Positions 4,441 through 59,037 of a stretch of DNA of 64,000 nt are shown piece after piece. Within the stretch, counting starts at the first letter, position 1; each line of letters begins with the position of its first letter. The notes under the pieces were generated by a model that was not told the origin of the DNA, did not search any database, and was given only the letters and a program-made list of their open reading frames with translations. Source of the DNA: a virus; the IMG/VR virus record IMGVR_UViG_3300044632_001278; one strand, given 5' to 3'. The position numbers were made by a program, and so were the translations under genes.

Positions 4441-5670
4441 ATGAGTGCTAATTTAGATCAAGATAGGGTAAGATGGCCTGGGAGTGGTAGTAGTGTTACT
4501 CAAAACACTGTGCCATTTGGTTATTACTTAAGCGAAAGTTGTAACACAGGATCTGGCGAAACTACTTTTGAAAATGATTGTAGTAGTAGTGCTATGTGGG
4601 CAGCAAAACGTTTGGGTTATCCTATTGTCGATATTGAAATGATCGATGTTAATTTTTATGCCTGTTTTGAAGAATCTGTATTGGAATATAACCGTGTAGT
4701 TAACGAATTCAACATCGTTAATAATATGGTAAATTTACAAGGATTACCACAAAACCAATACAAAAATTTAACAGGTCTAGGAGTAAAAAGTACAGGATTG
4801 CCTTTTATAATTCAATTGAGCAAACAATATGGTGCAGAAGCACTTGTTGGTGGCGAATATGAAGTTAAACGCAATTATATTACTGTCAGTGGCAGTGTTA
4901 ATCCAAGCAGCACACAACAAGTTTATGACTTAAATCAATTGATTGGTAAAGATATTGAACACTTGACAGGCTCTCGTATCGAAGTTAAACGTGTATTTCA
5001 CCAAAGACCGCCAGCAATTGCTCGTATTTATGATCCGTTTAGTATGACTGGTATGAGTTATAGTAACGTACTAACAGAAATGGGATTTAGCGCATACAGT
5101 CCTGCTACACAATTCTTAATGACTCCGATCTTTGAAGACTTGGAACGTGTACAAGCTATTGAGTTTAATGATATGGTTCGTAAAAGCGCATATAGTTTTG
5201 AAATTCTAGGTAATAATAAGTTGAGAATATTTCCAATTCCAACCGACAATTTCAAAGTTTATATAGATTATATAGTTGAAAGTGAACGTGATATTACCAA
5301 CTTTTATAGTGGATCTCGTTATGAATACATTAGCGATCCAAGTGATATACCATACGAATACTGTACATATTGTAAGATAAATCAACCAGGCAAACAGTGG
5401 ATCAAGAAATATTTCTTGGCTTTGTGCAAAGAAACATTGGGACGTATATTACAAAAATATAGTACAGTACCAATTCCAGGTGGCGAAGTAACTCTTGACG
5501 GTGCGGAGTTACGTTCTGAAGCCAAGGAGGAAAAAGACACATTGCTTGATAAATTGAGAGATATGTTGGAAAAAACCTTGCGAGTCAATCAATTGGAAAA
5601 TAAAGGTAAGGAAAGCGAAGAAATGAATAAGATGCTTTCCAGAGTACCACTACACATTTATATAGGATAA
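4441..5670 (+). CDS. Neck / head-tail adaptor protein (T4 gp13-like)
   Basis: RLGYPIVDIE N-terminal motif and WIKKYFLALCKETLGRILQKY..VPIPGGEVTLDG C-terminal motif. First gene of a gp13-14-15-like block. Confidence 0.8.
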   Translation: MSANLDQDRVRWPGSGSSVTQNTVPFGYYLSESCNTGSGETTFENDCSSSAMWAAKRLGYPIVDIEMIDVNFYACFEESVLEYNRVVNEFNIVNNMVNLQGLPQNQYKNLTGLGVKSTGLPFIIQLSKQYGAEALVGGEYEVKRNYITVSGSVNPSSTQQVYDLNQLIGKDIEHLTGSRIEVKRVFHQRPPAIARIYDPFSMTGMSYSNVLTEMGFSAYSPATQFLMTPIFEDLERVQAIEFNDMVRKSAYSFEILGNNKLRIFPIPTDNFKVYIDYIVESERDITNFYSGSRYEYISDPSDIPYEYCTYCKINQPGKQWIKKYFLALCKETLGRILQKYSTVPIPGGEVTLDGAELRSEAKEEKDTLLDKLRDMLEKTLRVNQLENKGKESEEMNKMLSRVPLHIYIG

Positions 5671-5673
5671 TTT

Positions 5674-6243
5674 ATGGCAGCACCTGTATCACCACAATAC
5701 CCTAAACAAAATCCAGCTTTTAAGCAATACTGGACATCTACACGTAAAGATGTGGGTATTTATAACAATAATTATTCTCCCGGTAGATACTTTTCTCCAA
5801 GAGATATAAATTTTTTGGGAAGTGTTAATTCTGAATTAATCGGTGATATAATCGAATGCGTTGTACAAGTATTTAAAATTGCAGCTTATGAAACCAATAC
5901 CAATATCTACGGTGAAAGCAGTAGTGACAAGGGTAAGGTTTTTTACTCTGGTATAGACTTGAGTTGTTTGGTGCAACGTGAAGACATTAACACAGAAAAT
6001 CAAGGATATGGACCTGATAGAAAACAAGATATTGTTTACAGATTTAGAGAACGTGATTGTATTACCACGAACTATTTCCCAGAAATTGGCGATTTGGTGC
6101 TTTACAATGAACGTTATTATGAAATTGATAACGTAGTTCAAGAACAATTCTTGGGTGGTCATCCTGATAAGTCTTGGAGTTTGATTGTTAATACTCATTA
6201 CACAAGACTAAGCAAAATTAACCTAGTAGAAAGACAAACATAA
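5674..6243 (+). CDS. Head closure / neck protein (T4 gp14-like)
   Basis: NIYGES...PEIGDLVLYNERYYEIDNV motif and synteny after the gp13-like gene. Confidence 0.7.
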   Translation: MAAPVSPQYPKQNPAFKQYWTSTRKDVGIYNNNYSPGRYFSPRDINFLGSVNSELIGDIIECVVQVFKIAAYETNTNIYGESSSDKGKVFYSGIDLSCLVQREDINTENQGYGPDRKQDIVYRFRERDCITTNYFPEIGDLVLYNERYYEIDNVVQEQFLGGHPDKSWSLIVNTHYTRLSKINLVERQT

Positions 6244-6246
6244 TTT

Positions 6247-7635
6247 ATGTCTTGGGGTCCAAATACTAATACAAATCCGCCACCAAATCCTATTGAAAAC
6301 GCATCTGCGCAATCAGATGTTAAAAAGTTCTATAATAGAGCCAACGCAACTCGTCGTGATACAGATAAACAAAAGAATTTTACTGTAACGTTATTGGACG
6401 TTGATACAGCTATTATCAACACATTAGATAGTACTTTAAGACTACAAGTAAACGATAATGGTGAAGTTGTCAAGGTGCCAATTATATATGGCAATCCAGA
6501 AAGATGGTTTGCTATGAAAAAGTTTGGTCATATCAGAGACAATCAAGGCAAAATATTGTTGCCAGCTGTTATGATTCGTAGAAAAAGTGTAGAAAATAAC
6601 AAAGATCTTGCAACATTTAATCGTTATTTGAGTTATGAAACCATAATGAATTATAGCGAGAAAAACAAATATGACAGATTTGATTTGATGAACAAAGGTG
6701 CGTTTGCAAGCAAGCCAACCAAACAAATTTACAGTGTAAGTTTACCAGTTCAAGTAAATATTACATACGAATGTATCATTTGGACTGATTATGTAGATCA
6801 AAACAATAAGCTGTTGGAACAAATCAATTATGCAGCTAAAGATTACTGGGGAGACGCAGAAAGATTTAAGTTCAGAGCCAGAATAGACAGTTATAGCATC
6901 GAACAAGAAATCAATGAAGGTGAAGATCGTAATATCAAAACATCATTTGATATAAATGTCAATGCATATTTGTTAAATGAAAATTACATAACAAATTTAG
7001 ACGGGGTAAAAAATACCACTCAAAAGCTATTTACAGTAAGAAAAGTAATGTTGCAAGAAAATGCAATTGCTAGTGCAGGTGAAATGGAAAACATTTCAAA
7101 CAATATTATTAAGAATAGCAACAATTTAAAAGATAGTCCATTGGATTACACAGATGTAACAGGTCAAGGTACAATGGCACTAAACGTAAATAAAGTAACA
7201 AATTTAGACGGATATAATAAAATACAACCCAGTTTTGAAGGTGTTACCAAAACACCATTTCATCCAGCTCCAAAATCTATCACCGATTATGGAGAAAATG
7301 GTTGGTTAGCATATGATTCTAAATATATCTATGTTTATCAATATCCAGCGGGGTGGTTAAAAAGAGAAATTGCTACATTTGATTATGACTATAATAGTCA
7401 AACCTATATCAGTGGATACGATTGCAATGGCAATCCTATTTACACAACTGCAAATAAAAGACCAATAAATACCGCTTTTAGAGTATTTCAAAGATTTCCT
7501 GACAAATTCTATCATCAAGTACCATATCAATCATCAGATTATGGTGAAGATGGTTGGGTAAGCTACGACGGTAATTATTTTTATATATACAGCGCAGGAC
7601 AGTGGAGAAGAATACCAATTTCTCTATTTAATTAA
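6247..7635 (+). CDS. Tail terminator / sheath stabiliser (T4 gp15-like) with C-terminal repeat extension
   Basis: KVPIIYGNPERW and PVQVNITYECIIWT motifs, plus synteny. The C-terminus has two copies of P..S.DYGE.GW..YD..Y.Y.Y...W.R. Confidence 0.7.
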   Translation: MSWGPNTNTNPPPNPIENASAQSDVKKFYNRANATRRDTDKQKNFTVTLLDVDTAIINTLDSTLRLQVNDNGEVVKVPIIYGNPERWFAMKKFGHIRDNQGKILLPAVMIRRKSVENNKDLATFNRYLSYETIMNYSEKNKYDRFDLMNKGAFASKPTKQIYSVSLPVQVNITYECIIWTDYVDQNNKLLEQINYAAKDYWGDAERFKFRARIDSYSIEQEINEGEDRNIKTSFDINVNAYLLNENYITNLDGVKNTTQKLFTVRKVMLQENAIASAGEMENISNNIIKNSNNLKDSPLDYTDVTGQGTMALNVNKVTNLDGYNKIQPSFEGVTKTPFHPAPKSITDYGENGWLAYDSKYIYVYQYPAGWLKREIATFDYDYNSQTYISGYDCNGNPIYTTANKRPINTAFRVFQRFPDKFYHQVPYQSSDYGEDGWVSYDGNYFYIYSAGQWRRIPISLFN

Positions 7636-7704
7636 ATATAATTAATATTTATGTTTTTAACACTTACACGGTGTTACTTAACCGTATCGTTATATTTATA
7701 AGAA

Positions 7705-10700
7705 ATGTCAACATTAAAGAAAGATCCATGCGAGGTTTCTCCAATAAAATTGGATAATGCTCTGTATGATTATAAAAAATTAACAGCGACTTTTAAAGAT
7801 CCTACCACAGAGCTGTTTCTTAAAATAATCGACGAATTACGTAAAATTATTTATTGTCGAACCAGTTCTCAGTTTTTCAACAATGTTGCTACTAAACAAA
7901 TACCATGCGATCAAAAATCAAAAACTTGGGTATTTGATCATAATTTAAACTCAGATCTAGTATTAATTCAAACATACGACGAGAATTTCAATCAATTAAT
8001 ACCAGAAACAATAGTACTCAATAATGATAATACCGCAACCATAACTTTTTCGTTTGATGCATGCGGATACATCATAGGTGTAAGCGGTAATATCAGCACC
8101 AGTGGTACTTCAGGCACAGGCACCAGTGGTAGTAGTGGTAGTAGCGGAGAAAAAGGATCAGCTGGATCAAGCGGAACAAGCAATACAAGCGGCACAAGCG
8201 GTACAAGCACATCTTCAGGTACCAGTGGTAGTCAAGGCACAAGCGGTACAAATGGTGAGGGTGGTAGTAGCGGTCAAAGTGGCGATATAGGAACCAGTGG
8301 AACTAGTGGAGAAAATGGAAGCAGTGGTACAAGCGGTAGTAGTGGTTTATTAGATGGATCAAGCGGATCAAGTGGTACAAGTACTACAAGCGGTACAACC
8401 GGCACAAGTGGCACAAGAGGATCAAGCGGTAGATCAGGCACCAGTGGAAGCAGCGGAACAAGTGGTAGTAGCGGAACAAGTGGTACTAGTGGTACAAGTG
8501 GTACCAGTGGTACAAGTGGCACAAACGGTACTAGTGGTAGCAGTGGCACCAGTGGTACAAGCGGATCTAGTGGCACAAGTGGTACAAATGGATCAAGTGG
8601 TACAAGTGGTAGCAGCGGATCAAGTGGTACAAGTGGATCAAGTGGTACAAGTGGTACAAGCGGATCTAGTGGCACCAGTGGTACTAGTGGTACGAGTGGT
8701 ACCAGTGGGTCAAGTGGATCGAGCGGATCTAGTGGCACAAGTGGCACATCTGGTATAAGTGGAAGCAGTGGTTCAAACGGCACAAGCGGCACAAATGGCA
8801 CCAGTGGCACAAGTGGTACTAGTGGAACAAGTGGTACAAGTGGTACAAGCGGTACAAGTGGATCATCTGGTAATAGTGGATCATCCGGTAGTAATGGGAC
8901 AAATGGCACCAGTGGTACAAGCGGCACAAGTGGTACAAGCGGTACTAGTGGTACAAGCGGAACAAGTGGTACAAGTGGTACAAGCGGTACAAGCGGTACT
9001 AGTGGATCAAGTGGATCAAGTGGGTCAAGTGGATCAAATGGTACAAACGGCACTAATGGTACAAATGGCACTAGTGGTACAAGCGGCACTAGCGGTACAA
9101 GTGGTACCAGTGGTACAAGTGGATCAAGTGGGTCAAGTGGGTCAAGTGGGTCAAGTGGATCAAGTGGATCTAATGGAACAAATGGTACCAGTGGTACAAA
9201 TGGTACCAGTGGTACTAGCGGAACAAGTGGTACAAGCGGTACTAGCGGATCAAGTGGTTCAAGTGGTTCAAGTGGGTTAAGTGGTTCAAGTGGTTCATCT
9301 GGTACTAGCGGATCGTCTGGCAGTAGCGGAACAAGTGGATCTAATGGCACAAACGGCACAAGTGGTACTAGCGGCACAAGTGGTACTAGCGGCACAAGTG
9401 GTACTAGCGGCACAAGTGGATCAAGTGGATCAAGTGGTACTAGTGGATCAAATGGTACAAGCGGATCTAACGGCACAAATGGCACAAGTGGATCAAATGG
9501 TACAAGTGGAACGAGTGGTACAAGCGGTACAAGTGGTAGTAGTGGAACAAGTGGTACAAGTGGTAGTAGTGGAACAAGTGGATCAAATGGCACAAGTGGT
9601 ACTAGCGGATCAAACGGCACAAGTGGATCTAATGGCACAAGTGGTACTAGTGGTACAAGCGGTACTAGTGGTACAAGCGGTACTAGTGGATCGAGTGGAT
9701 CAAGTGGATCAAGTGGATTAAGCGGTTCAAGTGGATCATCTGGTACTAGCGGATCAAGTGGATCATCTGGTACCAGCGGATCCAATGGAACGAATGGAAC
9801 AAGTGGATCGTCCGGTACTAGCGGATCAAGTGGATCGTCTGGTACTAGCGGATCAAGTGGATCATCCGGTACAAGTGGATCTAATGGAACAAGTGGTACT
9901 AGCGGATCTAACGGTACCAGTGGTAGCAGTGGCACAAGTGGTACAAGCGGATCAAGTGGTACTAGCGGTACAAGTGGATCAAGTGGATCAAGTGGTTCAA
10001 GTGGTTCAAGCGGATCAAGTGGCAGTAGTGGTACTAGTGGATCAAACGGTACTAGTGGTACAAGCGGTACAAACGGTACTAGTGGTTCAAGTGGTTCAAG
10101 TGGATTAAGTGGATCAAGTGGATCATCTGGTACAAGCGGATCAAGCGGTAGTAGTGGATCATCTGGTACAAGCGGATCTAATGGTACAAGCGGTAGTAGT
10201 GGATCAAATGGTACCAGTGGCACAAGTGGCACAAGTGGTACAAGTGGATCTAATGGTACAAGCGGTAGTAGTGGCACAAGCGGTAGTAGTGGATCATCTG
10301 GAACAAGTGGATCTAATGGCACAAGCGGTACAAGTGGTAGCAGTGGATCTTCTGGTATAAGTGGTAGTAGTGGAACGAGTGGCACAAGCGGTAGTAGTGG
10401 AACAAGTGGTAGTAGTGGATCAAATGGCACAAGCGGATCAAATGGTACTAATGGTACTAACGGTACTAACGGTACAAGTGGTACATCTGGTAGTAGTGGA
10501 ACAAGTGGTACTAGTGGAACAAGTGGATCATCTGGAACAAGCGGATCTAATGGTACAAGTGGAACAAGTGGGTCAAACGGTACAAGCGGTAGTAGTGGAA
10601 CAAGCGGTACTAGTGGTACTAGTGGCACAAGTGGTACTAGTGGCACAAGTGGTACTAGTGGATCATCTGGTATAAGTGGAACAAGCGGATCAAACGGCAC

Positions 10701-13700
10701 AAGTGGTACAAGCGGATCAAACGGCACAAGTGGTACAAGCGGTACTAGTGGCACAAGTGGTACAAGCGGTACTAGTGGCACAAGCGGTACAAGTGGTAGT
10801 AGTGGATCAAGTGGTACTAGTGGATCAAATGGCACAAGCGGCACAAGCGGCACTAGTGGTACTAGTGGTACGAGCGGATCTAATGGCACAAGCGGTACTA
10901 GTGGAACAAGTGGATCTAATGGCACAAGTGGTACAAGCGGCACAAGTGGTACAAGTGGGTCAAGTGGATCAAATGGTACAAGTGGGTCAAGTGGATCAAG
11001 CGGTACAAGTGGGTCAAATGGATCAAGCGGTACAAGTGGATCTAATGGCACAAGTGGCACAAGTGGTAGTAGTGGATCTTCTGGTATAAGTGGCAGCAGT
11101 GGTACAAATGGAACAAGCGGCACCAGTGGCGTAAGTGAATCAAGTGGATCAAGTGGAAGCAGTGGTACTAGTGGCACAAGTGGATCCAACGGTACAAGTG
11201 GCAGTAGTGGTACAAGTGGTACAAGTGGTAGTAGTGGTACAAGTGGATCAAATGGAAGCAGTGGCACAAGTGGAAGCAGTGGTACTAGTGGCACAAGTGG
11301 ATCTAACGGTACAAGTGGTACTAGTGGTACTAGTGGTACTAGTGGTACAAGCGGTACTAGTGGTAGTAGCGGATCGTCTGGTATAAGTGGGTCAAGTGGA
11401 TCAAGTGGCACAAGTGGTACAAGCGGATCGAACGGCACCAGTGGGTCAAGTGGATCAAGTGGATCAAGTGGCACAAGCGGATCAAGTGGATCAAGTGGTA
11501 CAAGCGGATCTAACGGTACAAGCGGATCTAACGGTACAAGTGGCACAAGTGGATCCAACGGTACAAGTGGTAGTAGCGGATCGTCTGGTATAAGTGGTAG
11601 CAGTGGAACAAACGGCACCAGTGGTACAAGTGGCACAAGTGGTATAAGCGGATCAAACGGTACAAGTGGTAGTAGCGGATCGTCTGGTACTAGCGGATCA
11701 AGTGGATCTAACGGTACAAGTGGTACAAATGGTACTAGTGGCACAAGCGGTACAAGTGGATCTAATGGTACCAGTGGTAGCAGTGGCACAAGTGGTACAA
11801 GCGGATCAAGTGGTACTAGTGGCACAAGCGGAACAAGTGGAACAAGCGGCAGTAATGGATCAAGTGGCACAAGTGGTATAAGTGGGTCAAATGGTACTAG
11901 TGGCACAAGCGGTACTAGTGGTAGTAGCGGATCGTCTGGTGTAAGTGGATCAAGTGGATCAAGTGGGTCAAGTGGGTCAAGTGGATCAAGTGGGTCAAGT
12001 GGATCAAGTGGTACAAGTGGATCAAGTGGGTCAAATGGTACTAGTGGCACAAGCGGAACAAGTGGATCAAGTGGGAGCAGTGGTACCAGTGGCACTAGTG
12101 GTACGAGTGGATCAAATGGTACCAGTGGAACGAGTGGAACAAGTGGTATAAGTGGGTCAAATGGTACAAATGGTACTAGTGGCACAAGTGGAACAAGTGG
12201 ATCAAGTGGTAGCAGTGGTACTAATGGTACTAGTGGTACAAGTGGTATAAGCGGATCAAATGGCACCAGTGGAACAAGCGGAACAAGTGGTACCAGTGGT
12301 ACTAGTGGTAGCAGTGGTACAAGCGGATTTAGTCGTGATAGTGGTAGCAGTGGTAATAGTGCCACAAGTGGTAGTAGTGGTACAAGTGGTAGTAGCGGTA
12401 CAAGTGGAACAAGTGGTAGCAGTGGTCAAAACGGAACAAGCGGAACAAATGGAACGAGTGGCACTAGCGGAACAAGTGGAACTAGTGGTAGCAGTGGTAG
12501 CAGTGGTATTAGTGGTAGCAGTGGTAGAAATGGAACCAGTGGTACAAGTGGCACAAGCGGAACAAGCGGAACAAGTGGTACTAGTGGTAGCAGTGGTACA
12601 AGCGGATTTAGTCGTGATAGTGGTAGCAGCGGTAATAGTGCCACAAGTGGTAGTAGTGGTACAAGTGGTAGTAGCGGTACAAGTGGAACAAGTGGTAGCA
12701 GCGGTCAAAACGGAACAAGCGGTACTAGTGGCACAAGCGGAACCAGTGGTAGTAGTGGTAGTAGTGGTAGCAGTGGTACAAGTGGTACAAGTGGTACGAG
12801 TGGTCGAAATGGAACCAGTGGTACAAGTGGTACAAGCGGAACCAGTGGTACAAGTGGAAGTAGTGGTACAAGCGGATTTAGTCGTGATAGTGGTAGCAGC
12901 GGTAATAGTGCCACAAGTGGTAGTAGTGGTACAAGTGGTAGTAGTGGAACGAGCGGCACAAGTGGTAGTAGCGGTCAAAACGGAACAAGTGGAACAAACG
13001 GAACAAGTGGCACAAGTGGAACGAGCGGAACAAGTGGTAGCAGTGGCACAAGTGGTCGAAATGGAACCAGTGGAACAAGTGGTAGCAGTGGTACGAGTGG
13101 CACAAGCGGAACGAGTGGTAGTAGTGGTACTGTTGGTACAAGTGGAACAAGTGGTGTAAGTGCTGGTGGAGGTGCTAGTGCTAGTAGTGGAAGTAGTGGT
13201 ATAAGTGGAACTAGTGGTAGCAGTGGTACGAGTGGCACTAGTGGTATTAGTGCTCCTAGTGGTACCAGTGGAATTAGTGGTGGTAGTTTTACTGATCAGC
13301 CTAATTATTTGGTAAAAACTACTGGTCTTACTACGTTACAGAGTGTTAATTTTTTAAGTGTGGATGGTACTACATTAACAGTTGTTGGAACTGTTAGTGC
13401 TACTACATTGATAGAAACGTCTAGTGAAAATACTAAAACGGATATTATGCCTTTATTGCCGCCGCAATTGGACAAGATTGTGTTATTGAATCCGGTGACA
13501 TTTAGGTATAAGAACAACAATGAATTTAGTATTGGTTTGATAGCTGAAGAGGTTGTGAAGATATATCCTGAATTTGTTAGTTATGATGAGTTGGGTAATA
13601 TATCTGGTATAAATTATAGTAAATTGACAGCTGTATTGATACAGGGTGTTAAAGAATTGAAGCAGATAGTTGATGAACAACAAATAACAATAAATCGATT

Positions 13701-13713
13701 GATAAATAAATAA
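7705..13713 (+). CDS. Giant Gly-X-Y (GTS/GSS/GSN) collagen-like fibre protein with C-terminal peptidase S74 intramolecular chaperone
   Basis: About 1730 aa with Gly at every third position and few interruptions. The C-terminus TSSENTKTDI...LNPVTFRYK...IGLIAEEV...INYSKLTAVLIQGVKEL is the endosialidase-type chaperone with its Ser/Lys pair. The N-terminus has a TWVFDHNL...TATITF fibre-attachment-like domain. Confidence 0.85.
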   Translation: MSTLKKDPCEVSPIKLDNALYDYKKLTATFKDPTTELFLKIIDELRKIIYCRTSSQFFNNVATKQIPCDQKSKTWVFDHNLNSDLVLIQTYDENFNQLIPETIVLNNDNTATITFSFDACGYIIGVSGNISTSGTSGTGTSGSSGSSGEKGSAGSSGTSNTSGTSGTSTSSGTSGSQGTSGTNGEGGSSGQSGDIGTSGTSGENGSSGTSGSSGLLDGSSGSSGTSTTSGTTGTSGTRGSSGRSGTSGSSGTSGSSGTSGTSGTSGTSGTSGTNGTSGSSGTSGTSGSSGTSGTNGSSGTSGSSGSSGTSGSSGTSGTSGSSGTSGTSGTSGTSGSSGSSGSSGTSGTSGISGSSGSNGTSGTNGTSGTSGTSGTSGTSGTSGTSGSSGNSGSSGSNGTNGTSGTSGTSGTSGTSGTSGTSGTSGTSGTSGTSGSSGSSGSSGSNGTNGTNGTNGTSGTSGTSGTSGTSGTSGSSGSSGSSGSSGSSGSNGTNGTSGTNGTSGTSGTSGTSGTSGSSGSSGSSGLSGSSGSSGTSGSSGSSGTSGSNGTNGTSGTSGTSGTSGTSGTSGTSGSSGSSGTSGSNGTSGSNGTNGTSGSNGTSGTSGTSGTSGSSGTSGTSGSSGTSGSNGTSGTSGSNGTSGSNGTSGTSGTSGTSGTSGTSGSSGSSGSSGLSGSSGSSGTSGSSGSSGTSGSNGTNGTSGSSGTSGSSGSSGTSGSSGSSGTSGSNGTSGTSGSNGTSGSSGTSGTSGSSGTSGTSGSSGSSGSSGSSGSSGSSGTSGSNGTSGTSGTNGTSGSSGSSGLSGSSGSSGTSGSSGSSGSSGTSGSNGTSGSSGSNGTSGTSGTSGTSGSNGTSGSSGTSGSSGSSGTSGSNGTSGTSGSSGSSGISGSSGTSGTSGSSGTSGSSGSNGTSGSNGTNGTNGTNGTSGTSGSSGTSGTSGTSGSSGTSGSNGTSGTSGSNGTSGSSGTSGTSGTSGTSGTSGTSGTSGSSGISGTSGSNGTSGTSGSNGTSGTSGTSGTSGTSGTSGTSGTSGSSGSSGTSGSNGTSGTSGTSGTSGTSGSNGTSGTSGTSGSNGTSGTSGTSGTSGSSGSNGTSGSSGSSGTSGSNGSSGTSGSNGTSGTSGSSGSSGISGSSGTNGTSGTSGVSESSGSSGSSGTSGTSGSNGTSGSSGTSGTSGSSGTSGSNGSSGTSGSSGTSGTSGSNGTSGTSGTSGTSGTSGTSGSSGSSGISGSSGSSGTSGTSGSNGTSGSSGSSGSSGTSGSSGSSGTSGSNGTSGSNGTSGTSGSNGTSGSSGSSGISGSSGTNGTSGTSGTSGISGSNGTSGSSGSSGTSGSSGSNGTSGTNGTSGTSGTSGSNGTSGSSGTSGTSGSSGTSGTSGTSGTSGSNGSSGTSGISGSNGTSGTSGTSGSSGSSGVSGSSGSSGSSGSSGSSGSSGSSGTSGSSGSNGTSGTSGTSGSSGSSGTSGTSGTSGSNGTSGTSGTSGISGSNGTNGTSGTSGTSGSSGSSGTNGTSGTSGISGSNGTSGTSGTSGTSGTSGSSGTSGFSRDSGSSGNSATSGSSGTSGSSGTSGTSGSSGQNGTSGTNGTSGTSGTSGTSGSSGSSGISGSSGRNGTSGTSGTSGTSGTSGTSGSSGTSGFSRDSGSSGNSATSGSSGTSGSSGTSGTSGSSGQNGTSGTSGTSGTSGSSGSSGSSGTSGTSGTSGRNGTSGTSGTSGTSGTSGSSGTSGFSRDSGSSGNSATSGSSGTSGSSGTSGTSGSSGQNGTSGTNGTSGTSGTSGTSGSSGTSGRNGTSGTSGSSGTSGTSGTSGSSGTVGTSGTSGVSAGGGASASSGSSGISGTSGSSGTSGTSGISAPSGTSGISGGSFTDQPNYLVKTTGLTTLQSVNFLSVDGTTLTVVGTVSATTLIETSSENTKTDIMPLLPPQLDKIVLLNPVTFRYKNNNEFSIGLIAEEVVKIYPEFVSYDELGNISGINYSKLTAVLIQGVKELKQIVDEQQITINRLINK
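8101..13290 (+). repeat. 9-nt-period coding tandem repeat (GGN ACN/TCN/AGY AGY/AAY)
   Basis: Directly visible, about 5.2 kb. It includes three higher-order copies of a GFSRDSGSSGNSATSG block at 12325, 12604 and 12874. Confidence 0.95.
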
Positions 13714-13722: not shown

Positions 13723-16700
13723 ATGGCAATATTACAAGGTGCTCGAATTACAGGATCAATTATAGCTACAACTTTTATTAAAGCTAGTGGTTTCAGTGGC
13801 AGTTTAACTGCTTCTAGATTGTATGTACAAGGATCGGTTGGTATAGGCACAACAAGTCCTGTTTATAAATTGGATGTAGTTGGTTCTGTGTATAGTTCTA
13901 ATTATTTTTCAGTATTAACCGCAGCAACATATGGTCCAAGTGATAATAGTGCGGCAATGCAAGTGTTTGGATCAACTGGTTCAGGTGGATTAACAAATAC
14001 TATAAAGTTTGTTACAGTTGGTAGTGAAAGAGTTCGTATTGACAACAATGGTAATGTTGGTATAGGTACAACAAGTCCTACGGGAACTTATGGAAAGTTA
14101 AGTGTAGCAGGCGGTATTCGTATATTAGATGATAATAATGCAAAATTAGAAATTGGTAGATATTCAAGTGGTGCATCCAATTCTTATATTAAACTGGGTT
14201 CAAATTCTAATAGTTTAAGAATTACTAATAATACTGATGCGGCTGATATCTTTACTATAGAAAATGGTGGTAATGTTGGTATAGGTACAACAAGTCCTAA
14301 TTATTTAACGGATATACAATCAACAACAAGTCCACAAACTTTAAATTTAAAATTAAATAAAACATCTACAACAAATGACTACGCAGAAATTGCATTTCAA
14401 TTATGGAGTGGCGCCGGTTCAGGAGCAAATACATTTGGCGGATCAGGAACTTCTAGACCAAGCGTGGTTTTAAGAGCATTAAATGAAAATGGAGGTACCG
14501 CTGCAGGTGCTTTTATAGTGGGAACATTTACAGGCGGATCAGATAATTCAACACTGACAGAAAAATTTAGAATTACATCAGTCGGTAACGTAGGTATAGG
14601 TACAACAAGTCCAAGTCAATTATTAGAAGTAGCTGGGTCTAGCCCAATAATTAGAGTATTGGCCACATCAGGTAATTCTACATTAAGATTAACTGATAAT
14701 GGTGTAAGAAATTGGGATCTAAAAGTTGTAGATACTTCAGATTATTTTGAAGTAGGTGGTACATCCGCAACTTCATTGGTTGTAACAGGAGCAGGTAATG
14801 TTGGTATAGGTACAACAAGTCCTGTATTTTCATTGGATGTGACAGGTGGTGTTGGATTAAATACATCTGGAACTGGAGTATCCGTAACAATTGGTGCAAA
14901 TAATACATCTGATAGATATTTACGCATTAGAAATTCAAATGGTAATTTTGAAATTGGAAGTGCTGGAAATCAACATTATTTATATGGTGTTGGTGCTAGT
15001 AATTTCTTTACTATCTACACAAATTCATCCGAACGATTCAGAATTGCAGCCGATGGTAATGTTGGTATAGGTACAACAAGTCCATCACAAAAATTAACTA
15101 TAAATAATGGTTCTTCAACAGGAGCCGGTGCAGTATATCCAATTAGATTATCTGGAGGAACAATGACTAGTGTTGGTGACTCTACTGGTTTATTGTTTAT
15201 ACAAAGAGATGCAAATGATGATTACGGTGCTTATATAAGACTATATACTACTCAAGCCAATCCTCAATATTTAAATCCAAGACTTGAATTTGGTGTACAA
15301 ACTACAGATACAAATGTACTTGGTAGTGTTGTTACTAGAATGGTAATAACAGGAGATGGCGATGTGGGTATTGGTACAACATCACCAACTGCACAATCAA
15401 ACTATAGATTTTTACAAGTTAACGGCACCAATTCGGCGGTTATTGAAACGATGGTTGGTGGTTCAAGAATTGGTGGATTTGATTCAAGTGCATCAGCTTT
15501 GTATGTAGGTTCAATTGGTAGTTATCCTGTTGTATTCAGAACGGCAGTTGATGAAAAAATGCGTATAGCTACAGATGGTAATGTGGGTATAGGCACAAGT
15601 ACTCCTGCTTATAAATTGGATGTGGTTGGTTCTATAAATACAAGCAACTTCATGTTTGTTTCATATCCATATGGCAACGCATTTCCATTACAATTAACCG
15701 CCAATAACTTTCTAAAAGCTGATAACTATTATTATGGAATGTCAATTAATACAGGAGATGTAAATTATATTTCTGGTAAGTTCCTAATTAATGGTGGTAC
15801 ATATAAGAGAGTAGAACTATATGGATACGAAAATAGTGTTGGATATATACCAACCATAATTCCAGGTGGATGTGTTGGTATTGGTACGATAATTACAAAT
15901 TCAGGTTTACAAATACAAACAGAAGGAACAAATACTACGTCTGGTTCATTCTTGTTTGTAAGATCTACAAATTCAAGTTTTGGTGGTGGGGCAATTGGTG
16001 TTGGATATGATTATGCAGCTGCAGTTGGAGCTAATTTCTATCCATTTAGAATTAGAGCTGGTAGTACCAACACTATATTATTGATAAATAGTGCGGGTGT
16101 AGTTTATGCGGGTGATACTACAGGAGCAGTTGCTTATGGTAATCATGACCCATATTATGCTTTTAATCAAGATACCAATACTGGTATGGATTGGGCAGCC
16201 GCTGATACACTAACATTTAAAACAGGTGGTAGTGAAAGAATGCGTATTGCTTCTAATGGCAGTGTTGGCATAGGTACAACAAGTCCTAATTATACACTTC
16301 AAGTTAACGGAACTTTTTACGTAAACAGCACAACATATATGAATGGATCTTTGACAGTTGAAGATTCATTCATAATAGATGGTAGGTTGGCAGGTAGTTT
16401 TGGTACGGGTTCTATACTAATGAAGAGTGGAAATTCTTCTGGTACTTGGAATCAATTTAATATATTTTACTATAAAAACTCAAGTATCGATAGACTCGGT
16501 TTTGTTGATGGTGGTTCTGTAGAAATATTAACTCTAAAAAATGGTGGTAATGTTGGTATAGGCACAACGAGTCCTGTTAATAAATTGCATATAAGTGGAT
16601 CTTCTACAAATTTACCACTTAAATTGGAAGGATTGACAAGTAACGCAACTGGATATTTTCTAACAGTTGATAATACAACCGGCGTTGTATACAAATCTAC

Positions 16701-17211
16701 CGGTGGTGCTAATGGAACAAGTGGCACCAGTGGCGCAAATGGCAGTCCAGGTGGTGCGGGTAGCAGTGGTACCAATGGAACGAGTGGCACCAGTGGCGCA
16801 AATGGTAATCCAGGTACCAGTGGCACTAGTGGCGCAAATGGTAATGCTGGGTCTAGTGGTATTACTGGTACCAGTGGTACTAGCGGTGTCACAAATATAA
16901 AAGCATGGATTCACTTTAATGGAACAGGCACACCATCATCTAACGCGTCTAATAACGTATCATCCATAACTGATAATGGTACCGGCGATTATACAATTAA
17001 CTTTACCACTGCATTTTCTAATGCAAATTATGTGGTAGCTGGTACAGCAACTTATCAATATGAAAATCCCGGTCAATCTATAAATAATATGTTTATTGCA
17101 GTACCAAGAAGACCTACAGCACAATTAGCTGGTAGTTGTAGAATTTCTACGCCTGGTTCTGATAACGTATTATACGATTGCGATTATGTTAGAGTATTAT
17201 TTTCAAATTAA
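13723..17211 (+). CDS. Modular tail fibre / adhesin with 11 GxVGIGT repeats
   Basis: Eleven G(N/S/D/C)VGIGT(TSP) junctions separate divergent beta-rich modules. A short GTS collagen segment is followed by the C-terminal KAWIHFNG...SSITDNGTGDYTINF domain typical of phage fibre tips. Confidence 0.8.
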   Translation: MAILQGARITGSIIATTFIKASGFSGSLTASRLYVQGSVGIGTTSPVYKLDVVGSVYSSNYFSVLTAATYGPSDNSAAMQVFGSTGSGGLTNTIKFVTVGSERVRIDNNGNVGIGTTSPTGTYGKLSVAGGIRILDDNNAKLEIGRYSSGASNSYIKLGSNSNSLRITNNTDAADIFTIENGGNVGIGTTSPNYLTDIQSTTSPQTLNLKLNKTSTTNDYAEIAFQLWSGAGSGANTFGGSGTSRPSVVLRALNENGGTAAGAFIVGTFTGGSDNSTLTEKFRITSVGNVGIGTTSPSQLLEVAGSSPIIRVLATSGNSTLRLTDNGVRNWDLKVVDTSDYFEVGGTSATSLVVTGAGNVGIGTTSPVFSLDVTGGVGLNTSGTGVSVTIGANNTSDRYLRIRNSNGNFEIGSAGNQHYLYGVGASNFFTIYTNSSERFRIAADGNVGIGTTSPSQKLTINNGSSTGAGAVYPIRLSGGTMTSVGDSTGLLFIQRDANDDYGAYIRLYTTQANPQYLNPRLEFGVQTTDTNVLGSVVTRMVITGDGDVGIGTTSPTAQSNYRFLQVNGTNSAVIETMVGGSRIGGFDSSASALYVGSIGSYPVVFRTAVDEKMRIATDGNVGIGTSTPAYKLDVVGSINTSNFMFVSYPYGNAFPLQLTANNFLKADNYYYGMSINTGDVNYISGKFLINGGTYKRVELYGYENSVGYIPTIIPGGCVGIGTIITNSGLQIQTEGTNTTSGSFLFVRSTNSSFGGGAIGVGYDYAAAVGANFYPFRIRAGSTNTILLINSAGVVYAGDTTGAVAYGNHDPYYAFNQDTNTGMDWAAADTLTFKTGGSERMRIASNGSVGIGTTSPNYTLQVNGTFYVNSTTYMNGSLTVEDSFIIDGRLAGSFGTGSILMKSGNSSGTWNQFNIFYYKNSSIDRLGFVDGGSVEILTLKNGGNVGIGTTSPVNKLHISGSSTNLPLKLEGLTSNATGYFLTVDNTTGVVYKSTGGANGTSGTSGANGSPGGAGSSGTNGTSGTSGANGNPGTSGTSGANGNAGSSGITGTSGTSGVTNIKAWIHFNGTGTPSSNASNNVSSITDNGTGDYTINFTTAFSNANYVVAGTATYQYENPGQSINNMFIAVPRRPTAQLAGSCRISTPGSDNVLYDCDYVRVLFSN
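14050..15083 (+). repeat. Four identical dispersed 29-bp repeats GGTAATGTTGGTATAGGTACAACAAGTCC
   Basis: Exact copies start at 14050, 14269, 14794 and 15055. Near-copies at about 13831, 14584, 16258 and 16546. Confidence 0.9.
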
Positions 17212-19132: not shown

Positions 19133-19144
19133 ATTTATTACTAT

Positions 19145-54989: not shown

Positions 54990-55156
54990 TTTTTTATAAG
55001 ATCGTAAATGTAGTTACCTAATATTTGAAAAAACAAGTTGTACGCAATTAATAAACATAAGAAAAATACTATTTCCAAATGATCTAATTTACCATTTTGA
55101 TTTATATCAAAATACTTTAAGAACGTATTTTTCCAAATTTCTATCAATTTTTTCAT
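54986..55156 (-). CDS. 56-aa EF-hand-loop plus TM micro-protein (not in the ORF track)
   Basis: MKKLIEIWKNTFLKYFDINQNGKLDHLEIVFFLCLLIAYNLFFQILGNYIYDLIKK. ATGA overlaps at both ends. Confidence 0.65.
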   Translation of the reverse strand: MKKLIEIWKNTFLKYFDINQNGKLDHLEIVFFLCLLIAYNLFFQILGNYIYDLIKK

Positions 55157-56355
55157 AACAATTTTTTGTTATACCATTCGTCTTTTATTTCAATTAATTG
55201 TTTGCTATAATCTTGTAATTTATTAATGTGCAGTTTGAAGATGTCAAATTCTAAAGTGCCTATTTGACCGCTATCTTCTAACATCAGTTGAATCATATTG
55301 AAAAATTCAAAACTTTCATTTGATAACTTAGTTGCATCAAACTCTACGATGATATCATTTGTTTTTGGTACTTCATATCGTTTGAGTTTTTTATTCAAAT
55401 CAAACTTGGTATTTTTCTGTTCGATATTAATATAACGGTCATATGGTACATCGGTATAAATGGTGTCACACCAAGGTTCCAACAAAGCCAATTTGTATTC
55501 GTCACAGTTACGTACTACAAATCCAACATCATAACGTTTTGGCACAATTGGCTTCATAGTATCATTGTGTTTAACAAAGTGTCCCCATTTACGAATAAAG
55601 TTTCTGGCACTTCGATTGTTTTGTGCCAACCATTCGTCGCTTTCTTTGCCAACTGTGGTTAGAGTTGGATTATATCTACTTCCTCTACAGGTCATATGAT
55701 ATACACATCCCTCCCACGTTTGTACAAACTTATATCCATTTAATAGGAAACGGTTAAAAATATCACTATCTTCTTTGCTCTGAGGAGCATAAAGATCATC
55801 GTGACCACCAATTGATTGAAAATCCTTCTTATAAAGGGCCCATGGCGCAAAGATTCCTTCTGTGGTTTTATCTTTTCTGGTCAAACGGGTATCATTGAAC
55901 CATTTCAATAATCCAGCTTCATTAAACTCTTCTGGCTCAGTTCCAAATGCTTGAACGATCTTTTCTGGTCCGGGAGGATGTAAAGGTGGTTCAATACGAG
56001 TTAGACTTACGATTGTGCCTGGTTGAATATACTTTTCTACATATTTATCAAAGTTAGGACAGGCGTACATATCAGCGTGATAGATCATCACAACCTCATT
56101 GGTAGCAACTTCATTTATAAGACGGTCGTATAGAATTGTGTGACCCAATCTGGTTGGTCCGTGGTTACGTATGAACTTAAAGTATGGATCTTTAGCTGCA
56201 GTTTCTTTACACCATTCCAAGGTGCCGTCGTTACTAAAATCGTCAGCTACGCAAACTTCGTGTTCTTTATGACTTAAATTTTTACGAATAGCTTCGTAAC
56301 TCCACTTAAGATATTTTAAGTTGTTTCTGCTGGGTTGGATAAAACTAATTTTCAT
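55153..56355 (-). CDS. Glycosyltransferase family 2
   Basis: ISFIQPSRN, VADDFSNDGT, HADM, GGHD and EDSD. Confidence 0.85.
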   Translation of the reverse strand: MKISFIQPSRNNLKYLKWSYEAIRKNLSHKEHEVCVADDFSNDGTLEWCKETAAKDPYFKFIRNHGPTRLGHTILYDRLINEVATNEVVMIYHADMYACPNFDKYVEKYIQPGTIVSLTRIEPPLHPPGPEKIVQAFGTEPEEFNEAGLLKWFNDTRLTRKDKTTEGIFAPWALYKKDFQSIGGHDDLYAPQSKEDSDIFNRFLLNGYKFVQTWEGCVYHMTCRGSRYNPTLTTVGKESDEWLAQNNRSARNFIRKWGHFVKHNDTMKPIVPKRYDVGFVVRNCDEYKLALLEPWCDTIYTDVPYDRYINIEQKNTKFDLNKKLKRYEVPKTNDIIVEFDATKLSNESFEFFNMIQLMLEDSGQIGTLEFDIFKLHINKLQDYSKQLIEIKDEWYNKKLL

Positions 56356-56357
56356 AT

Positions 56358-57302
56358 TTAAAACTGTATTTTTATTTGATGCATCAATTCACTATAATCG
56401 TGGATTCCTGTCTTTACAACACTTTTGTCTATTACAGGAATAACGTTAGCGTTTGAAAGCTTACGGAAATAACTATTAGGCCCAAAGTAATTAGGGCGTA
56501 ATTCTTTTCCCTTATGTATATAACTAATAACTGTGCCTCCAAAAAGTGAAGATAATATTGAATTTCCGCCACAAACTGTAACAAATCTGCTGCAATTTGC
56601 CATTAATTTAAGTTGGGTTTCATTGTAACTATACTTTGATTGTTTTACCAAATCGTCTATTAAAATTACATTATCAAAATATTTGCACAATTCAAAGTCT
56701 GTTATAGTTCCAATTCCTTCTACATTAGCTTTAATATCGTGGTAACCTTGTTGTAATGAATTGTATTCGTTTTGGTCTATAGTAAATTCTTTTTCTTTAT
56801 TAGTAGCTCTCTTGTATATTACAAGATATCCTTTTTCTTTAAAATAATCAAACATTTCATATAAACAAGGAATGTTAAAATATCCCAGAGGAATTTCTCC
56901 GTGTTCCATATTATATTTGTTTGTTATAAATACCACGGGTTTATCAAATTTATATTCGTCGTTTTGATAATATTCTTTAAAAGGAGGACTAGACCACTTG
57001 GTGTAATCCAACACACCATTAACTTGTTCTTGTTCTTCAGTTGTTAGATGGTGATATTCTTTGCCTGTAACTGCTAGTGAGTTATGGTGAATCCATTTAT
57101 TTGGCACTTCTGCTAACGCCAGATTATTATCGATTGTTCTGGTTAGAAATTCTTCTTTTACATTGTCACAGAAGAAATAGTATGGTCTCATTCCTTTACT
57201 AGTAACTACACCATCCAATTGTTTGTTTTGATGTAACCAATAAGCAAAAGGTATAGCTAGTGCCAATTCAATGCCAAATTCTGGATTTACTTTGAGTATC
57301 AT
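56358..57302 (-). CDS. Putative glycosyltransferase / glycan-modifying protein
   Basis: EFGIEL..P N-terminus and QLKLMANCSRFVTVCGGNS GT-B-like C-terminus, plus cluster context. Confidence 0.45.
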   Translation of the reverse strand: MILKVNPEFGIELALAIPFAYWLHQNKQLDGVVTSKGMRPYYFFCDNVKEEFLTRTIDNNLALAEVPNKWIHHNSLAVTGKEYHHLTTEEQEQVNGVLDYTKWSSPPFKEYYQNDEYKFDKPVVFITNKYNMEHGEIPLGYFNIPCLYEMFDYFKEKGYLVIYKRATNKEKEFTIDQNEYNSLQQGYHDIKANVEGIGTITDFELCKYFDNVILIDDLVKQSKYSYNETQLKLMANCSRFVTVCGGNSILSSLFGGTVISYIHKGKELRPNYFGPNSYFRKLSNANVIPVIDKSVVKTGIHDYSELMHQIKIQF

Positions 57303-57303
57303 A

Positions 57304-58380: not shown

Positions 58381-59036
58381 AGGTGTGCGTTTATCATTTT
58401 CAGTACCTTAAAAGCCTCTGCATATTTACATTGACCTTGTATACCTCTAAATCTTGCTAGTATTTCTAGGTTAGATTTTACATTTAATCCAACTTTTTCA
58501 TATTTTGAAATCTGACTTCTATGACACATAGAAGCTTCAATTTTCTTATCAAATGCGTTATCTATATTTTCATAGTAATTTATATCCATTTGATTCTCTG
58601 TCATTCTGGAAATGGGTATTTGTTCATAACATAATACGTTGGGAACATATCGAGCAGCTGCCATCGTAGTCTTGAATGTGGAAATATGGTCTTGATTTGC
58701 ATCTCCGGCCCAATGTGTATAAATTGTATTTACTTTGTGCTTTTTAATCAAGCTTTCAAGTTTACTTACCGAGTCAAAACTAAAAGGCACGTGTAAGTCT
58801 TTGAACGGTAAGAACTCCACATCGTCACATTGCAACACCTTAGACGCATTAATGGTTTCCAGTTTATTTTCTTCTGCGGTTCTTAATAATGTTCCATTAG
58901 TACCGTCCACAGATTCTGTGTTGGTCATACACACGTATACTACGTAATCGCCTTTTAATTTGTGATTGTACAGTGTACCACCACAACCAAATTCAATATC
59001 ATCAGGATGTGCTCCTATTGCCATTACACGTTTCAT
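58377..59036 (-). CDS. PIG-L/LmbE family N-deacetylase
   Basis: AHPDDIEFG, NQDH, HRSQ and AEAF. Confidence 0.88.
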   Translation of the reverse strand: MKRVMAIGAHPDDIEFGCGGTLYNHKLKGDYVVYVCMTNTESVDGTNGTLLRTAEENKLETINASKVLQCDDVEFLPFKDLHVPFSFDSVSKLESLIKKHKVNTIYTHWAGDANQDHISTFKTTMAAARYVPNVLCYEQIPISRMTENQMDINYYENIDNAFDKKIEASMCHRSQISKYEKVGLNVKSNLEILARFRGIQGQCKYAEAFKVLKMINAHL

Positions 59037-59037
59037 A

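What the first reader, a model, noticed from the sequence alone, without database searches (positions are those of the whole stretch)
7705..13713. Giant proline-free Gly-Thr/Ser-Ser collagen-like fibre with an autocleaving trimerisation chaperone
Seen: roughly 575 Gly-X-Y triplets, with X almost only Thr/Ser and Y Ser/Asn, essentially no Pro and few charges, between an N-terminal attachment-like domain and an S74 chaperone. Known: S74 domains fold trimeric fibres, and collagen rises about 0.29 nm per residue. Inference: a triple helix would be about 500 nm long, around three times the tail length implied by the 1135-aa tape measure. Such a sequence should be unstable unless modified, for example glycosylated. 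An alternative fold is a polyglycine-II bundle as in snow-flea antifreeze protein. Possible roles are a long host-capture tether, a hydration or ice-interacting coat, or a glycan shield.
Basis: partly seen in the sequence, partly recalled or inferred. Interest (0 to 1): 0.75.

Follow-up and report, generated by a model that had tools for sequence, protein, structure and literature searches.

The report
Giant proline-free collagen-like phage fibre
A lake-water T4-like phage encodes a 2002-residue protein made almost entirely of Gly-Thr/Ser-Ser repeats and ending in a self-cleaving trimerising chaperone; it is most likely a half-micron, probably sugar-coated, three-chain fibre of a widespread but unstudied class that lacks everything thought to hold collagen together.

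Summary
ORF 7705-13713 (+) encodes 2002 aa: a 130-aa N-domain, about 550 Gly-X-Y triplets (X = Thr/Ser, Y = Ser/Asn, no Pro, no charge over 900 aa), a 55-aa stalk and a Peptidase_S74 chaperone with an intact Ser1906/Lys1911 dyad.

It is not an assembly expansion. Five independent complete IMG/VR orthologues are 1912-2059 aa long, and a second lineage reaches at least 570 triplets. Internal repeats are only about 74% alike.

Gly is under very strong selection: 2 replacement against 121 silent columns, compared with 90 against 146 at X and Y. This replicates in the second lineage. It argues for a Gly-dependent packed helix and against a disordered linker.

Four related phage records (two per lineage; the window's own assembly is not held) carry a TibC/Aah-type protein heptosyltransferase in an operon beside the tail sheath gene. 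The window itself holds a sugar-synthesis island. Glycosylation is therefore plausible but not shown.

The neighbouring fibre gene is swapped between phages while this gene stays 98% identical. I therefore read it as a conserved accessory fibre next to the neck genes, not the main receptor binder.

It is not the longest of its kind; tracts of at least 810 triplets exist elsewhere. This scan has already noted the class in other genomes. Fold, sugars and position on the virion remain untested.

The parts
7692..7699 (+). ATATTTAT late-promoter-like motif ending 5 nt before the ATG
   Evidence: The same motif lies just upstream of other structural genes (4428, 21147, 24574). Its enrichment in the window is modest: 32 matches against 20 +/- 4.5 expected.
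7705..13713 (+). Whole fibre gene, 2002 aa plus stop
   Evidence: dN/dS against the G001 orthologue is 0.14.
7705..8094 (+). N-terminal domain (aa 1-130): a helical hairpin (aa 13-52) and a beta-sandwich (aa 61-127). Presumed virion anchor.
   Evidence: AF2 model with pLDDT 74, and 85-95 for the sandwich. Residues 1-70 occur only in this gene family and in short relatives such as P0057. Residues 70-130 are a module of about 60 aa repeated in 761 large fibre-like proteins. No clear PDB match.
8095..8391 (+). Leader of interrupted Gly-X-Y (aa 131-229), in a different register and holding most of the few charges
8392..13251 (+). Single-register collagen-like tract, aa 230-1849: 540 triplet positions, about 531 of them Gly, no Pro
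   Evidence: Gly positions show 2 replacement against 121 silent variable columns among 5 alleles.
12550..12810 (+). One 87-aa (29-triplet) GFSRDSGSSGNSATS-containing unit that is present here and absent from G001/L009: copy-number polymorphism
13252..13419 (+). Non-collagen stalk (aa 1850-1905) that would remain as the distal tip after cleavage
   Evidence: It has low pLDDT as a monomer with short strands. The stalk role is inferred by analogy with the endoNF/T5 stalks.
13420..13710 (+). Peptidase_S74 intramolecular chaperone (aa 1906-2002). Dyad Ser1906 (13420-13422) and Lys1911 (13435-13437). Predicted cleavage Thr1905|Ser1906.
   Evidence: Pfam. Alignment to 8jov. Ser and Lys are invariant in 11 homologues. 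AF2 pLDDT is 84-95, and the top ten Foldseek hits are all chaperone domains: 7dc3, 3gud, 3gw6, 4uw8.
4441..7635 (+). Neck/tail-completion genes directly upstream: Ad2/gp13-14-like, a 189-aa ORF, and a gp15-like sheath stabiliser. Context only.
   Evidence: The order is conserved in three lineages.
13723..17211 (+). Second fibre gene (1162 aa), 9 nt downstream and without its own motif. It is hypervariable between otherwise near-identical phages and is the likely specific receptor binder.
55153..63919 (-). Sugar biosynthesis and transfer island: GT2, radical SAM, PIG-L, WbqC, PseC-like, epimerase, PseB-like, GT17. Context only; its target is unknown.

Best explanation
The gene encodes a conserved, very long homotrimeric accessory fibre of a freshwater T4-like myophage. 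Shown: the gene is real, under purifying selection, and similar in length and composition across lineages. It carries an intact S74 chaperone, and Gly at every third residue is under extreme constraint. Inferred: three chains are brought into parallel register by the C-terminal chaperone and the 55-aa stalk. The Gly-(Thr/Ser)-(Ser/Asn) tract then zips C-to-N into a collagen-type triple helix about 0.46-0.49 micrometres long. The chaperone then cuts itself off between Thr1905 and Ser1906 through the Ser1906/Lys1911 dyad, leaving a 1905-aa mature chain. The N-terminal hairpin plus beta-sandwich anchors the fibre to the virion, probably near the neck or proximal tail, given that the gene always follows the gp13/14/gp15-like genes. 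The tract has neither proline nor charge pairs. Stability is therefore most likely supplied by O-glycosylation of Ser/Thr by the phage's own TibC/Aah-type heptosyltransferase operon, by low lake temperature and by sheer length. Functionally it would be a long, flexible, low-specificity whisker or fishing line that enlarges the capture radius or senses the surroundings. The adjacent hypervariable fibre would supply the specific receptor binding.
For: The gene is real. Five independent complete orthologues of 1912-2059 aa are 98% identical at the protein level. A second lineage reaches at least 1873 aa and 570 triplets with the same Pro-free composition. The collinear alignment is 95.4% identical against about 74% off register. 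dN/dS is 0.135 in the repeat. There is a structural constraint on Gly: 2 replacement against 121 silent columns at Gly, compared with 59/79 at X and 31/67 at Y (Fisher p = 3e-17). It replicates in lineage 2 as 3/188 against 149/133 and 75/108. All indels among lineage-1 alleles are whole triplets. The chaperone is supported by Pfam above cut-off, the invariant dyad with the endoNF S911/K916 spacing (PMC8326128) and the fold match. Glycosylation capacity is present: TIGR04414 scores 345-349 bits against a cut-off of 200 in all four related records. The gene sits in an FkbM-GT4-GT4/TibC operon abutting the sheath gene. TibC heptosylates Ser residues of a repetitive substrate (PMC4358343). In more distant phages, TibC-like genes lie within 10 kb of Pro-free S/T Gly-X-Y fibres in 7 of 10 loci, and 4 of 5 long TibC-bearing contigs carry such fibres elsewhere. 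Pro is not strictly required for a clamped triple helix (PMC13673506). For the accessory role, the downstream fibre is only 28-38% identical between phages whose collagen gene is 98% identical, and only about 55 non-collagen residues remain at the tip after cleavage.
Against: No structure, CD, EM or proteomics exists, so the triple helix is inferred from sequence alone. Thr at X and Ser/Asn at Y are poor triple-helix formers (recalled from host-guest scales, not checked here). The salt bridges proposed as the general collagen folding code (PMC11923368) are absent. In this phage's own clade the TibC-like operon is about 29 kb from the fibre gene, and 0 of 25 close loci have the fibre within 10 kb. 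I could verify the operon only in relatives, because the window's own assembly is not held. The co-occurrence counts have no control set. Sugar islands in aquatic T4-like phages are usually ascribed to host-surface or DNA modification (PMC7029224). Whole-triplet indels could reflect slippage on a 9-bp repeat rather than selection. The attachment site rests on gene order only, and the N-domain has no informative structural match.
Confidence: 0.6

Rival explanations
1. The tract is an extended, disordered, mucin-like (possibly glycosylated) tether. It is trimerised only at its ends and does not form a packed helix.
For: There is no Pro, almost no charge, and Ser/Thr content above 60%. This resembles low-complexity linkers and mucin domains. 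Glycosyltransferases are present.
Against: Gly at every third position almost never changes despite abundant silent change (2/123 and 3/191 variable columns). A single register is kept over 540 positions. A disordered linker would not need either.
Confidence: 0.12
2. The Gly-X-Y tract packs as a polyglycine-II bundle or sheet, as in snow-flea antifreeze protein or the phage S16 gp38 tip. It might have ice- or surface-binding activity.
For: Polyglycine-II packing also requires Gly every third residue, so the Gly constraint does not exclude it.
Against: Gly is only 33%, with beta-branched Thr at X. Runs of 305-340 triplets have no turn motifs. The C-terminal S74 domain sets three parallel chains in register, which is the geometry of collagen nucleation and not of antiparallel bundles (the features of the known bundles are recalled, not tested here).
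Confidence: 0.06
3. It is the phage's primary host-specific receptor-binding tail fibre, not an accessory fibre.
For: It lies in the fibre cassette between the neck and tube genes, as fibres do in Flavobacterium phage immuto. S74 domains are typical of receptor-binding fibres and spikes (PMC8326128).
Against: It stays 98% identical while the next fibre gene is exchanged between phages. The mature tip would be only about 55 residues, with no recognisable binding domain.
Confidence: 0.15
4. The great length is an assembly expansion or collapse of a shorter repeat.
For: At least 30 of 39 IMG/VR contigs that carry the N-domain end inside the repeat, and two copies end in frameshifted tails. The repeat is therefore hard to assemble.
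Against: Five complete independent assemblies agree within 7% in length and align collinearly. The longest exact internal repeat is 83 bp and 93% of 31-mers are unique.
Confidence: 0.02

Closest known systems
Phage and prophage collagen-like tail-fibre proteins (e.g. EPclA/EPclB of E. coli O157:H7 prophages, PMC3368898)
   Same: Gly-X-Y tract inside a trimeric phage fibre protein, flanked by non-collagen domains that trimerise it.
   Different: EPclA is stabilised by Pro at X and about 22% charged residues (as quoted in PMC11923368). Its tract is far shorter (recalled, not checked here). The tract here has no Pro, about 1% charge and 540 triplets.
S74 intramolecular-chaperone fibres and spikes: endosialidase endoNF, T5 L-shaped tail fibre pb1, GA-1 gp12 (PDB 3gw6, 4uw8, 3gud)
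   Same: C-terminal chaperone domain with a Ser/Lys dyad that trimerises the upstream stalk and then cuts itself off. The fold and the dyad are matched here.
   Different: In the known cases the chaperone folds a triple beta-helix or beta-prism. Here, beyond a 55-aa stalk, the body is a collagen-type repeat. The Asp and Arg of the usual S-D-x-R-x-K motif are Ser and Asn here.
T4 fibritin (wac) collar whiskers
   Same: The logic is the same: an N-terminal anchor, a long trimeric rod, and a C-terminal trimerisation nucleus. The gene lies beside the gp13/14/15 neck genes, and the role is accessory and not receptor-specific.
   Different: Fibritin is a coiled coil of about 53 nm with a retained foldon. 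There is no sequence or fold relation. Here the rod is collagen-like, roughly ten times longer, and its nucleus is released.
Threonine-glycosylated collagens: Bacillus anthracis BclA, Riftia cuticle collagen, (Gly-Pro-Thr)10 peptides (as reviewed in PMC11923368)
   Same: Hydroxyproline-free triple helices in which glycosylated Thr is thought to supply stability.
   Different: Those have Pro at X and Thr at Y. Here Thr/Ser is at X, Ser/Asn at Y, and there is no Pro at all. Glycosylation here is only inferred.
TibC/TibA and Aah/AIDA-I autotransporter heptosyltransferase systems (PMC4358343)
   Same: Relatives of this phage encode a protein matching TIGR04414 well above cut-off, with the C-terminal four-Cys cluster. 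The candidate substrate is likewise a long Ser-rich repetitive protein.
   Different: The enzyme is fused to a GT4 domain, sits in a phage late operon beside the sheath gene, and its substrate would be a collagen-like fibre and not a beta-helical autotransporter. No activity is shown.

Membership tests
Collagen triple-helix repeat proteins (PF01391) | Gly at every third residue over long uninterrupted runs | tested here: met
   Runs of 305 and 132 triplets. One register spans 540 positions with about 9 in-phase substitutions. Pfam Collagen E 4e-217.
Collagen triple-helix repeat proteins (PF01391) | Selective constraint specifically on the Gly position | tested here: met
   2 replacement against 121 silent columns at Gly, compared with 90/146 at X+Y, p = 3e-17. 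Replicated in lineage 2 as 3/188.
Collagen triple-helix repeat proteins (PF01391) | Known stabilisers: imino acids at X/Y or Lys-Gly-Asp/Glu salt bridges | tested here: not met
   0 Pro in 230-1849 and no charged residue in 244-1144. This is a usual property of characterised collagens and not a formal defining feature.
Collagen triple-helix repeat proteins (PF01391) | Adjacent trimerisation/nucleation domain | tested here: met
   S74 chaperone at the C-terminus.
Collagen triple-helix repeat proteins (PF01391) | Triple-helical conformation (CD 225-nm band, cooperative melt, protease resistance) | not testable with these tools
   Only monomer structure prediction was available.
Peptidase_S74 intramolecular chaperone (PF13884) | Profile match above the curated cut-off at the C-terminus of a fibre protein | tested here: met
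   37.7 bits against 22, residues 1906-1958.
Peptidase_S74 intramolecular chaperone (PF13884) | Catalytic Ser and Lys five residues apart (endoNF S911/K916, MyRF S587/K592) | tested here: met
   S1906/K1911 are invariant in 11 aligned homologues and aligned to 8jov. Dyad definition from PMC8326128.
Peptidase_S74 intramolecular chaperone (PF13884) | Chaperone fold | tested here: met
   AF2 pLDDT 84-95 for residues 1906-2002. Foldseek ranks 1-10 are 7dc3 (E 2e-5), 3gud, 3gw6 and 4uw8.
Peptidase_S74 intramolecular chaperone (PF13884) | Autoproteolytic release after trimer folding | not testable with these tools
   Needs expression and SDS-PAGE or mass spectrometry of wild type against S1906A/K1911A.
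T4 fibritin-type neck whiskers | Coiled-coil rod with C-terminal foldon, bound to the gp13/gp14 neck | tested here: not met
   There is no coiled coil or foldon; the body is Gly-X-Y. Only the gene neighbourhood is similar. It may work like fibritin but is not a member.
Polyglycine-II bundle proteins (snow-flea antifreeze type) | Short polyglycine-II helices joined by turns, Gly well above one third, small residues at X/Y | tested here: not met
   33% Gly, Thr at X, and 305 triplets without a break. The family features are recalled from the literature and were not checked here.
BAHT (TibC/Aah) protein O-heptosylation system | Enzyme matching TIGR04414 above cut-off in the same phage | tested here: inconclusive
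Met in four related records, G001-G004, at 345-349 bits against 200. There is none in the window, and the window's own assembly is not held.
BAHT (TibC/Aah) protein O-heptosylation system | This fibre is the glycosylated substrate | not testable with these tools
   Only association is available: 7 of 10 distant TibC-like loci have such a fibre within 10 kb, against 1 of 66 closer ones. 4 of 5 long contigs carry fibres elsewhere. There was no control set.

The most novel reading that the evidence does not exclude
This is a natural collagen triple helix half a micron long that contains no proline and no charge pairs. It is held together instead by dense O-heptosylation (or another glycosylation) of its Ser/Thr residues by a phage-encoded TibC-type enzyme. 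That would be a third, sugar-based solution to collagen stability, used by abundant freshwater phages as a long-range capture line.
Probability: 0.3. Interest if true: 0.8.

Novelty: new variant of a known kind. Interest (0 to 1): 0.58.

Why it matters
Collagen stability is currently explained by imino acids, hydroxyproline and Lys-Asp/Glu salt bridges (PMC11923368). This protein and its many relatives keep a perfect Gly-X-Y register over hundreds of triplets under strong selection while lacking all three. They therefore offer a clean natural test of what a triple helix minimally needs, and of whether sugars can replace proline. For phage biology, fibres several times longer than the tail, probably glycosylated by the phage's own enzymes, would change how adsorption range and virion surface chemistry are viewed for abundant freshwater phages. 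For genomics, the gene breaks most short-read assemblies at this locus.

Tried and rejected
- **Assembly expansion:** rejected.
- **Antisense ORF 8274-12365 (1363 aa) and the nested + strand ORFs:** by-products of the repeat. The domain homology at both ends and the dN/dS value fix the reading frame.
- **tblastn of the whole protein against cultured phages:** found only an S74 match in a Synechococcus phage, because the low-complexity filter masks the repeat.
- **N-domain fold searches:** no Foldseek hit at E < 1e-3. The best VIA Z was 6.2, with generic hairpins and sandwiches and weak phage receptor-binding, portal-tail and baseplate sandwiches. This does not show where the fibre attaches.
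- **The two nucleotidyltransferase genes flanking the tube gene (17367, 19121) as ADP-heptose enzymes:** NCBIfam gives nothing for the first and only weak matches to nicotinamide-nucleotide adenylyltransferase models for the second, so I dropped the idea.
- **"Longest of its class":** the top 120 database hits have at most 245 triplets and nothing comparable appears among 3505-5000-aa proteins. However, loci found through the TibC-like gene hold tracts of at least 810 and at least 586 triplets, so I dropped this claim too.
- **Tight linkage of the TibC-like gene and the fibre in this clade:** not found, 0 of 25 within 10 kb.
- **Tool limits:** The window's own assembly is not held. One alignment attempt failed on a stop codon.


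Full report
**What is there.** The window is part of a 33% G+C T4-like myophage. It holds neck, tube, baseplate-hub, tape-measure, UvsX, gp32 and ribonucleotide reductase genes. The nearest cultured relatives are Flavobacterium phage immuto and a Microcystis phage, both distant. ORF 7705-13713 (+) encodes 2002 aa. Strict counting gives 546 Gly-X-Y triplets, with X = Thr 310/Ser 200 and Y = Ser 459/Asn 78. Residues 230-1849 keep one register over 540 positions. The few interruptions are in-phase Gly substitutions, there is no Pro, and residues 244-1144 hold no charged residue. Pfam reports Collagen (E 4e-217) and Peptidase_S74 (37.7 bits against 22).

**Not an artefact.** At the DNA level the repeat is degenerate: about 70% matches, a longest exact repeat of 83 bp, and 93% of 31-mers unique. 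The nearest held virus record (G001) has a 1912-aa orthologue that aligns collinearly at 95.4% nucleotide identity, whereas off-register alignments reach only 74-79%. A scan of IMG/VR with the N-domain found 39 loci. Five genes are complete: 1912, 1912, 1930, 2002 and 2059 aa, with 520-569 triplets and 98% protein identity. All their length differences are whole triplets of 3 to 99 aa. In a second lineage the N-domain is 66% identical and the neck genes 90-93% identical. Its gene has the same Pro-free Gly-(Ser/Thr)-Ser composition and reaches at least 1873 aa and 570 triplets, but every contig ends inside the repeat. The repeat is thus hard to assemble, yet its size is reproducible and conserved.

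**Selection.** dN/dS against G001 is 0.135 in the repeat.
- Among five lineage-1 alleles, Gly positions show 121 columns with silent change only and 2 with replacement.
- X positions show 79 silent and 59 replacement columns; Y positions show 67 and 31. Fisher p = 3e-17.
- Lineage 2 gives the same picture: 188/3 at Gly, 133/149 at X and 108/75 at Y.

Gly every third residue is therefore required in its own right and is not a by-product of the repeat. That argues for a tightly packed helix needing Gly in its core and against a disordered linker. Whole-triplet indels fit this reading but could also come from slippage on a 9-bp unit.

**The ends.**
- *C-terminus.* Pfam position 1 falls on Ser1906, and Lys1911 follows five residues later. 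This matches the endoNF S911/K916 and MyRF S587/K592 dyads (PMC8326128). Both residues are invariant in 11 homologues.
- *C-terminal fold.* An AF2 model of residues 1841-2002 is confident for 1906-2002. Its ten best Foldseek hits are all solved chaperone domains: MyRF 7dc3, GA-1 gp12 3gud, endoNF 3gw6 and T5 4uw8.
- *Predicted product.* I predict cleavage at Thr1905|Ser1906. This would release 97 residues and leave a mature tip of about 55 non-collagen residues.
- *Modularity.* The closest chaperone domains (55-60% identity) sit on Ser-rich fibres without collagen repeats, so the module is shuffled between fibres.
- *N-terminus.* The model shows a helical hairpin (13-52) and a confident beta-sandwich (61-127). 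The sandwich is a module of about 60 aa found in up to 11 copies in 761 large proteins. The first 70 residues occur only in this gene family and in short relatives such as P0057, a 221-aa protein with about six triplets and a different C-terminal knob. Fold searches gave nothing decisive.

**Context and role.** The gene always follows the gp13/14-like, 189-aa and gp15-like genes, in three lineages. It has an ATATTTAT motif 5 nt before its ATG, as other late genes do. The next gene, a 1162-aa fibre, starts 9 nt after the stop. Between phages whose collagen gene is 98% identical, this neighbour is only 28-38% identical. I therefore read the neighbour as the diversifying receptor binder and the collagen-like protein as a conserved accessory fibre. 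It would be functionally comparable to T4 whiskers but roughly ten times longer. At 0.286 nm per residue (textbook value), 1620-1720 residues give 460-490 nm, against about 170 nm for a tail set by the 1135-aa tape measure.

**Stability and sugars.** The tract lacks the stabilisers proposed for collagens in all domains of life (PMC11923368). Pro is not strictly required when chains are clamped in register (PMC13673506).
- *Transferase.* All four related records tested, two of each lineage, encode a 714-717-aa protein matching the TibC/Aah heptosyltransferase model TIGR04414 at 345-349 bits against a cut-off of 200.
- *Operon.* In G001 this gene is the last in an FkbM methyltransferase-GT4-GT4/TibC operon that abuts the 1304-aa tail sheath gene. 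It keeps a C-terminal four-Cys cluster. TibC hyper-heptosylates Ser residues of a repetitive substrate (PMC4358343).
- *Sugar island.* The window itself carries a sugar island at 55-64 kb, with PseB-like and PseC-like enzymes, PIG-L, WbqC, GT2 and GT17.
- *Association.* This is mixed. Among 76 TibC-like loci in IMG/VR, 7 of the 10 most distant have a Pro-free S/T Gly-X-Y fibre within 10 kb. Only 1 of the 66 closer ones does. Four of five long contigs of the closer class carry such fibres elsewhere. No control set was run.

Glycosylation of this fibre is plausible but unproven. The islands could instead serve host-surface or DNA modification (PMC7029224).

**How unusual.** About 70 of the 120 best long database matches are likewise below 2% Pro and above 80% Ser/Thr/Asn, and many carry S74. 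Tracts of at least 810 and at least 586 triplets exist in other phage contigs. Earlier notes of this scan describe the same class in at least 27 other genomes. My literature searches found collagen-like phage fibres, S74 chaperones and Thr-glycosylated collagens, but no description of this Pro-free, charge-free class. I therefore rate it a new variant of a known kind. It is a good, well-replicated example and not a unique object.

**Limits.** Only monomer folding was available. The triple helix, the cleavage, the sugars and the attachment site are all inferences.

Noticed in passing
window 13723-17211 (+): The 1162-aa second fibre directly downstream is exchanged between phages whose collagen-like gene is 98% identical: 38% identity in L007 and about 28-38% in L008 and L009. 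In G001 the gene in this slot is 1779 aa. It looks like a cassette-swapped receptor binder.
   Followed up: partly
window 55153-63919 (-): An operon-like island of sugar enzymes and transferases: GT2, radical SAM, PIG-L deacetylase, WbqC, PseC-like aminotransferase, epimerase, PseB-like dehydratase and GT17. The best NCBIfam hits are below equivalog cut-offs, and no exporter was seen in this stretch.
   Followed up: partly
L065 (G001:62000-78000) 3109-12219 (-): In the close relative G001, an FkbM methyltransferase, a GT4 and a GT4 fused to a TibC/Aah-like heptosyltransferase sit immediately upstream of a very large (1304-aa) tail sheath gene. This suggests late, virion-directed glycosylation.
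   Followed up: partly
L136 3-7898 (+) and L141 3-6056 (+): Other IMG/VR phage contigs hold even longer Pro-free Gly-(S/T)-S tracts, with at least 810 uninterrupted triplets and at least 586 triplets. Each lies within 10 kb of a TibC-like gene and ends in a different, non-S74 C-terminal domain.
   Followed up: no
L016 5720-6688 and L029 5717-7858: Two IMG/VR copies of the lineage-2 gene end early, at 322 and 713 aa, with tails that read like the repeat in another frame. These are assembly or sequencing frameshifts, or real truncated alleles.
   Followed up: no
P0057, P0102, P0191 (database proteins): Short relatives use the same N-domain or beta-sandwich module but end in a conserved 'LNF..DTAA..GGVP.GGLYRNGN..IRI' knob of unknown fold. 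This C-terminal module recurs on several fibre proteins.
   Followed up: no
window 17367-18530 and 19121-20053 (+): Two nucleotidyltransferase-type genes flank the tail tube gene where a sheath gene would be expected: one with a HAD-like N-terminal half, and one HxGH type with weak similarity to nicotinamide-nucleotide adenylyltransferases. In the close relative G001 the sheath gene lies about 29 kb from the fibre gene.
   Followed up: partly
window 8274-12365 (-): A 1363-aa antisense open frame spans the repeat. It is a by-product of the codon-biased 9-bp periodicity, and nothing supports it as a gene.
   Followed up: partly
G007 (contig of L129) 104481-105539: A further phage lineage carries the N-domain sandwich (60% identity to residues 71-130) followed directly by Gly-X-Y repeats (74% identity) at a contig end. 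The anchor-plus-collagen design therefore extends beyond the two lineages studied here.
   Followed up: no
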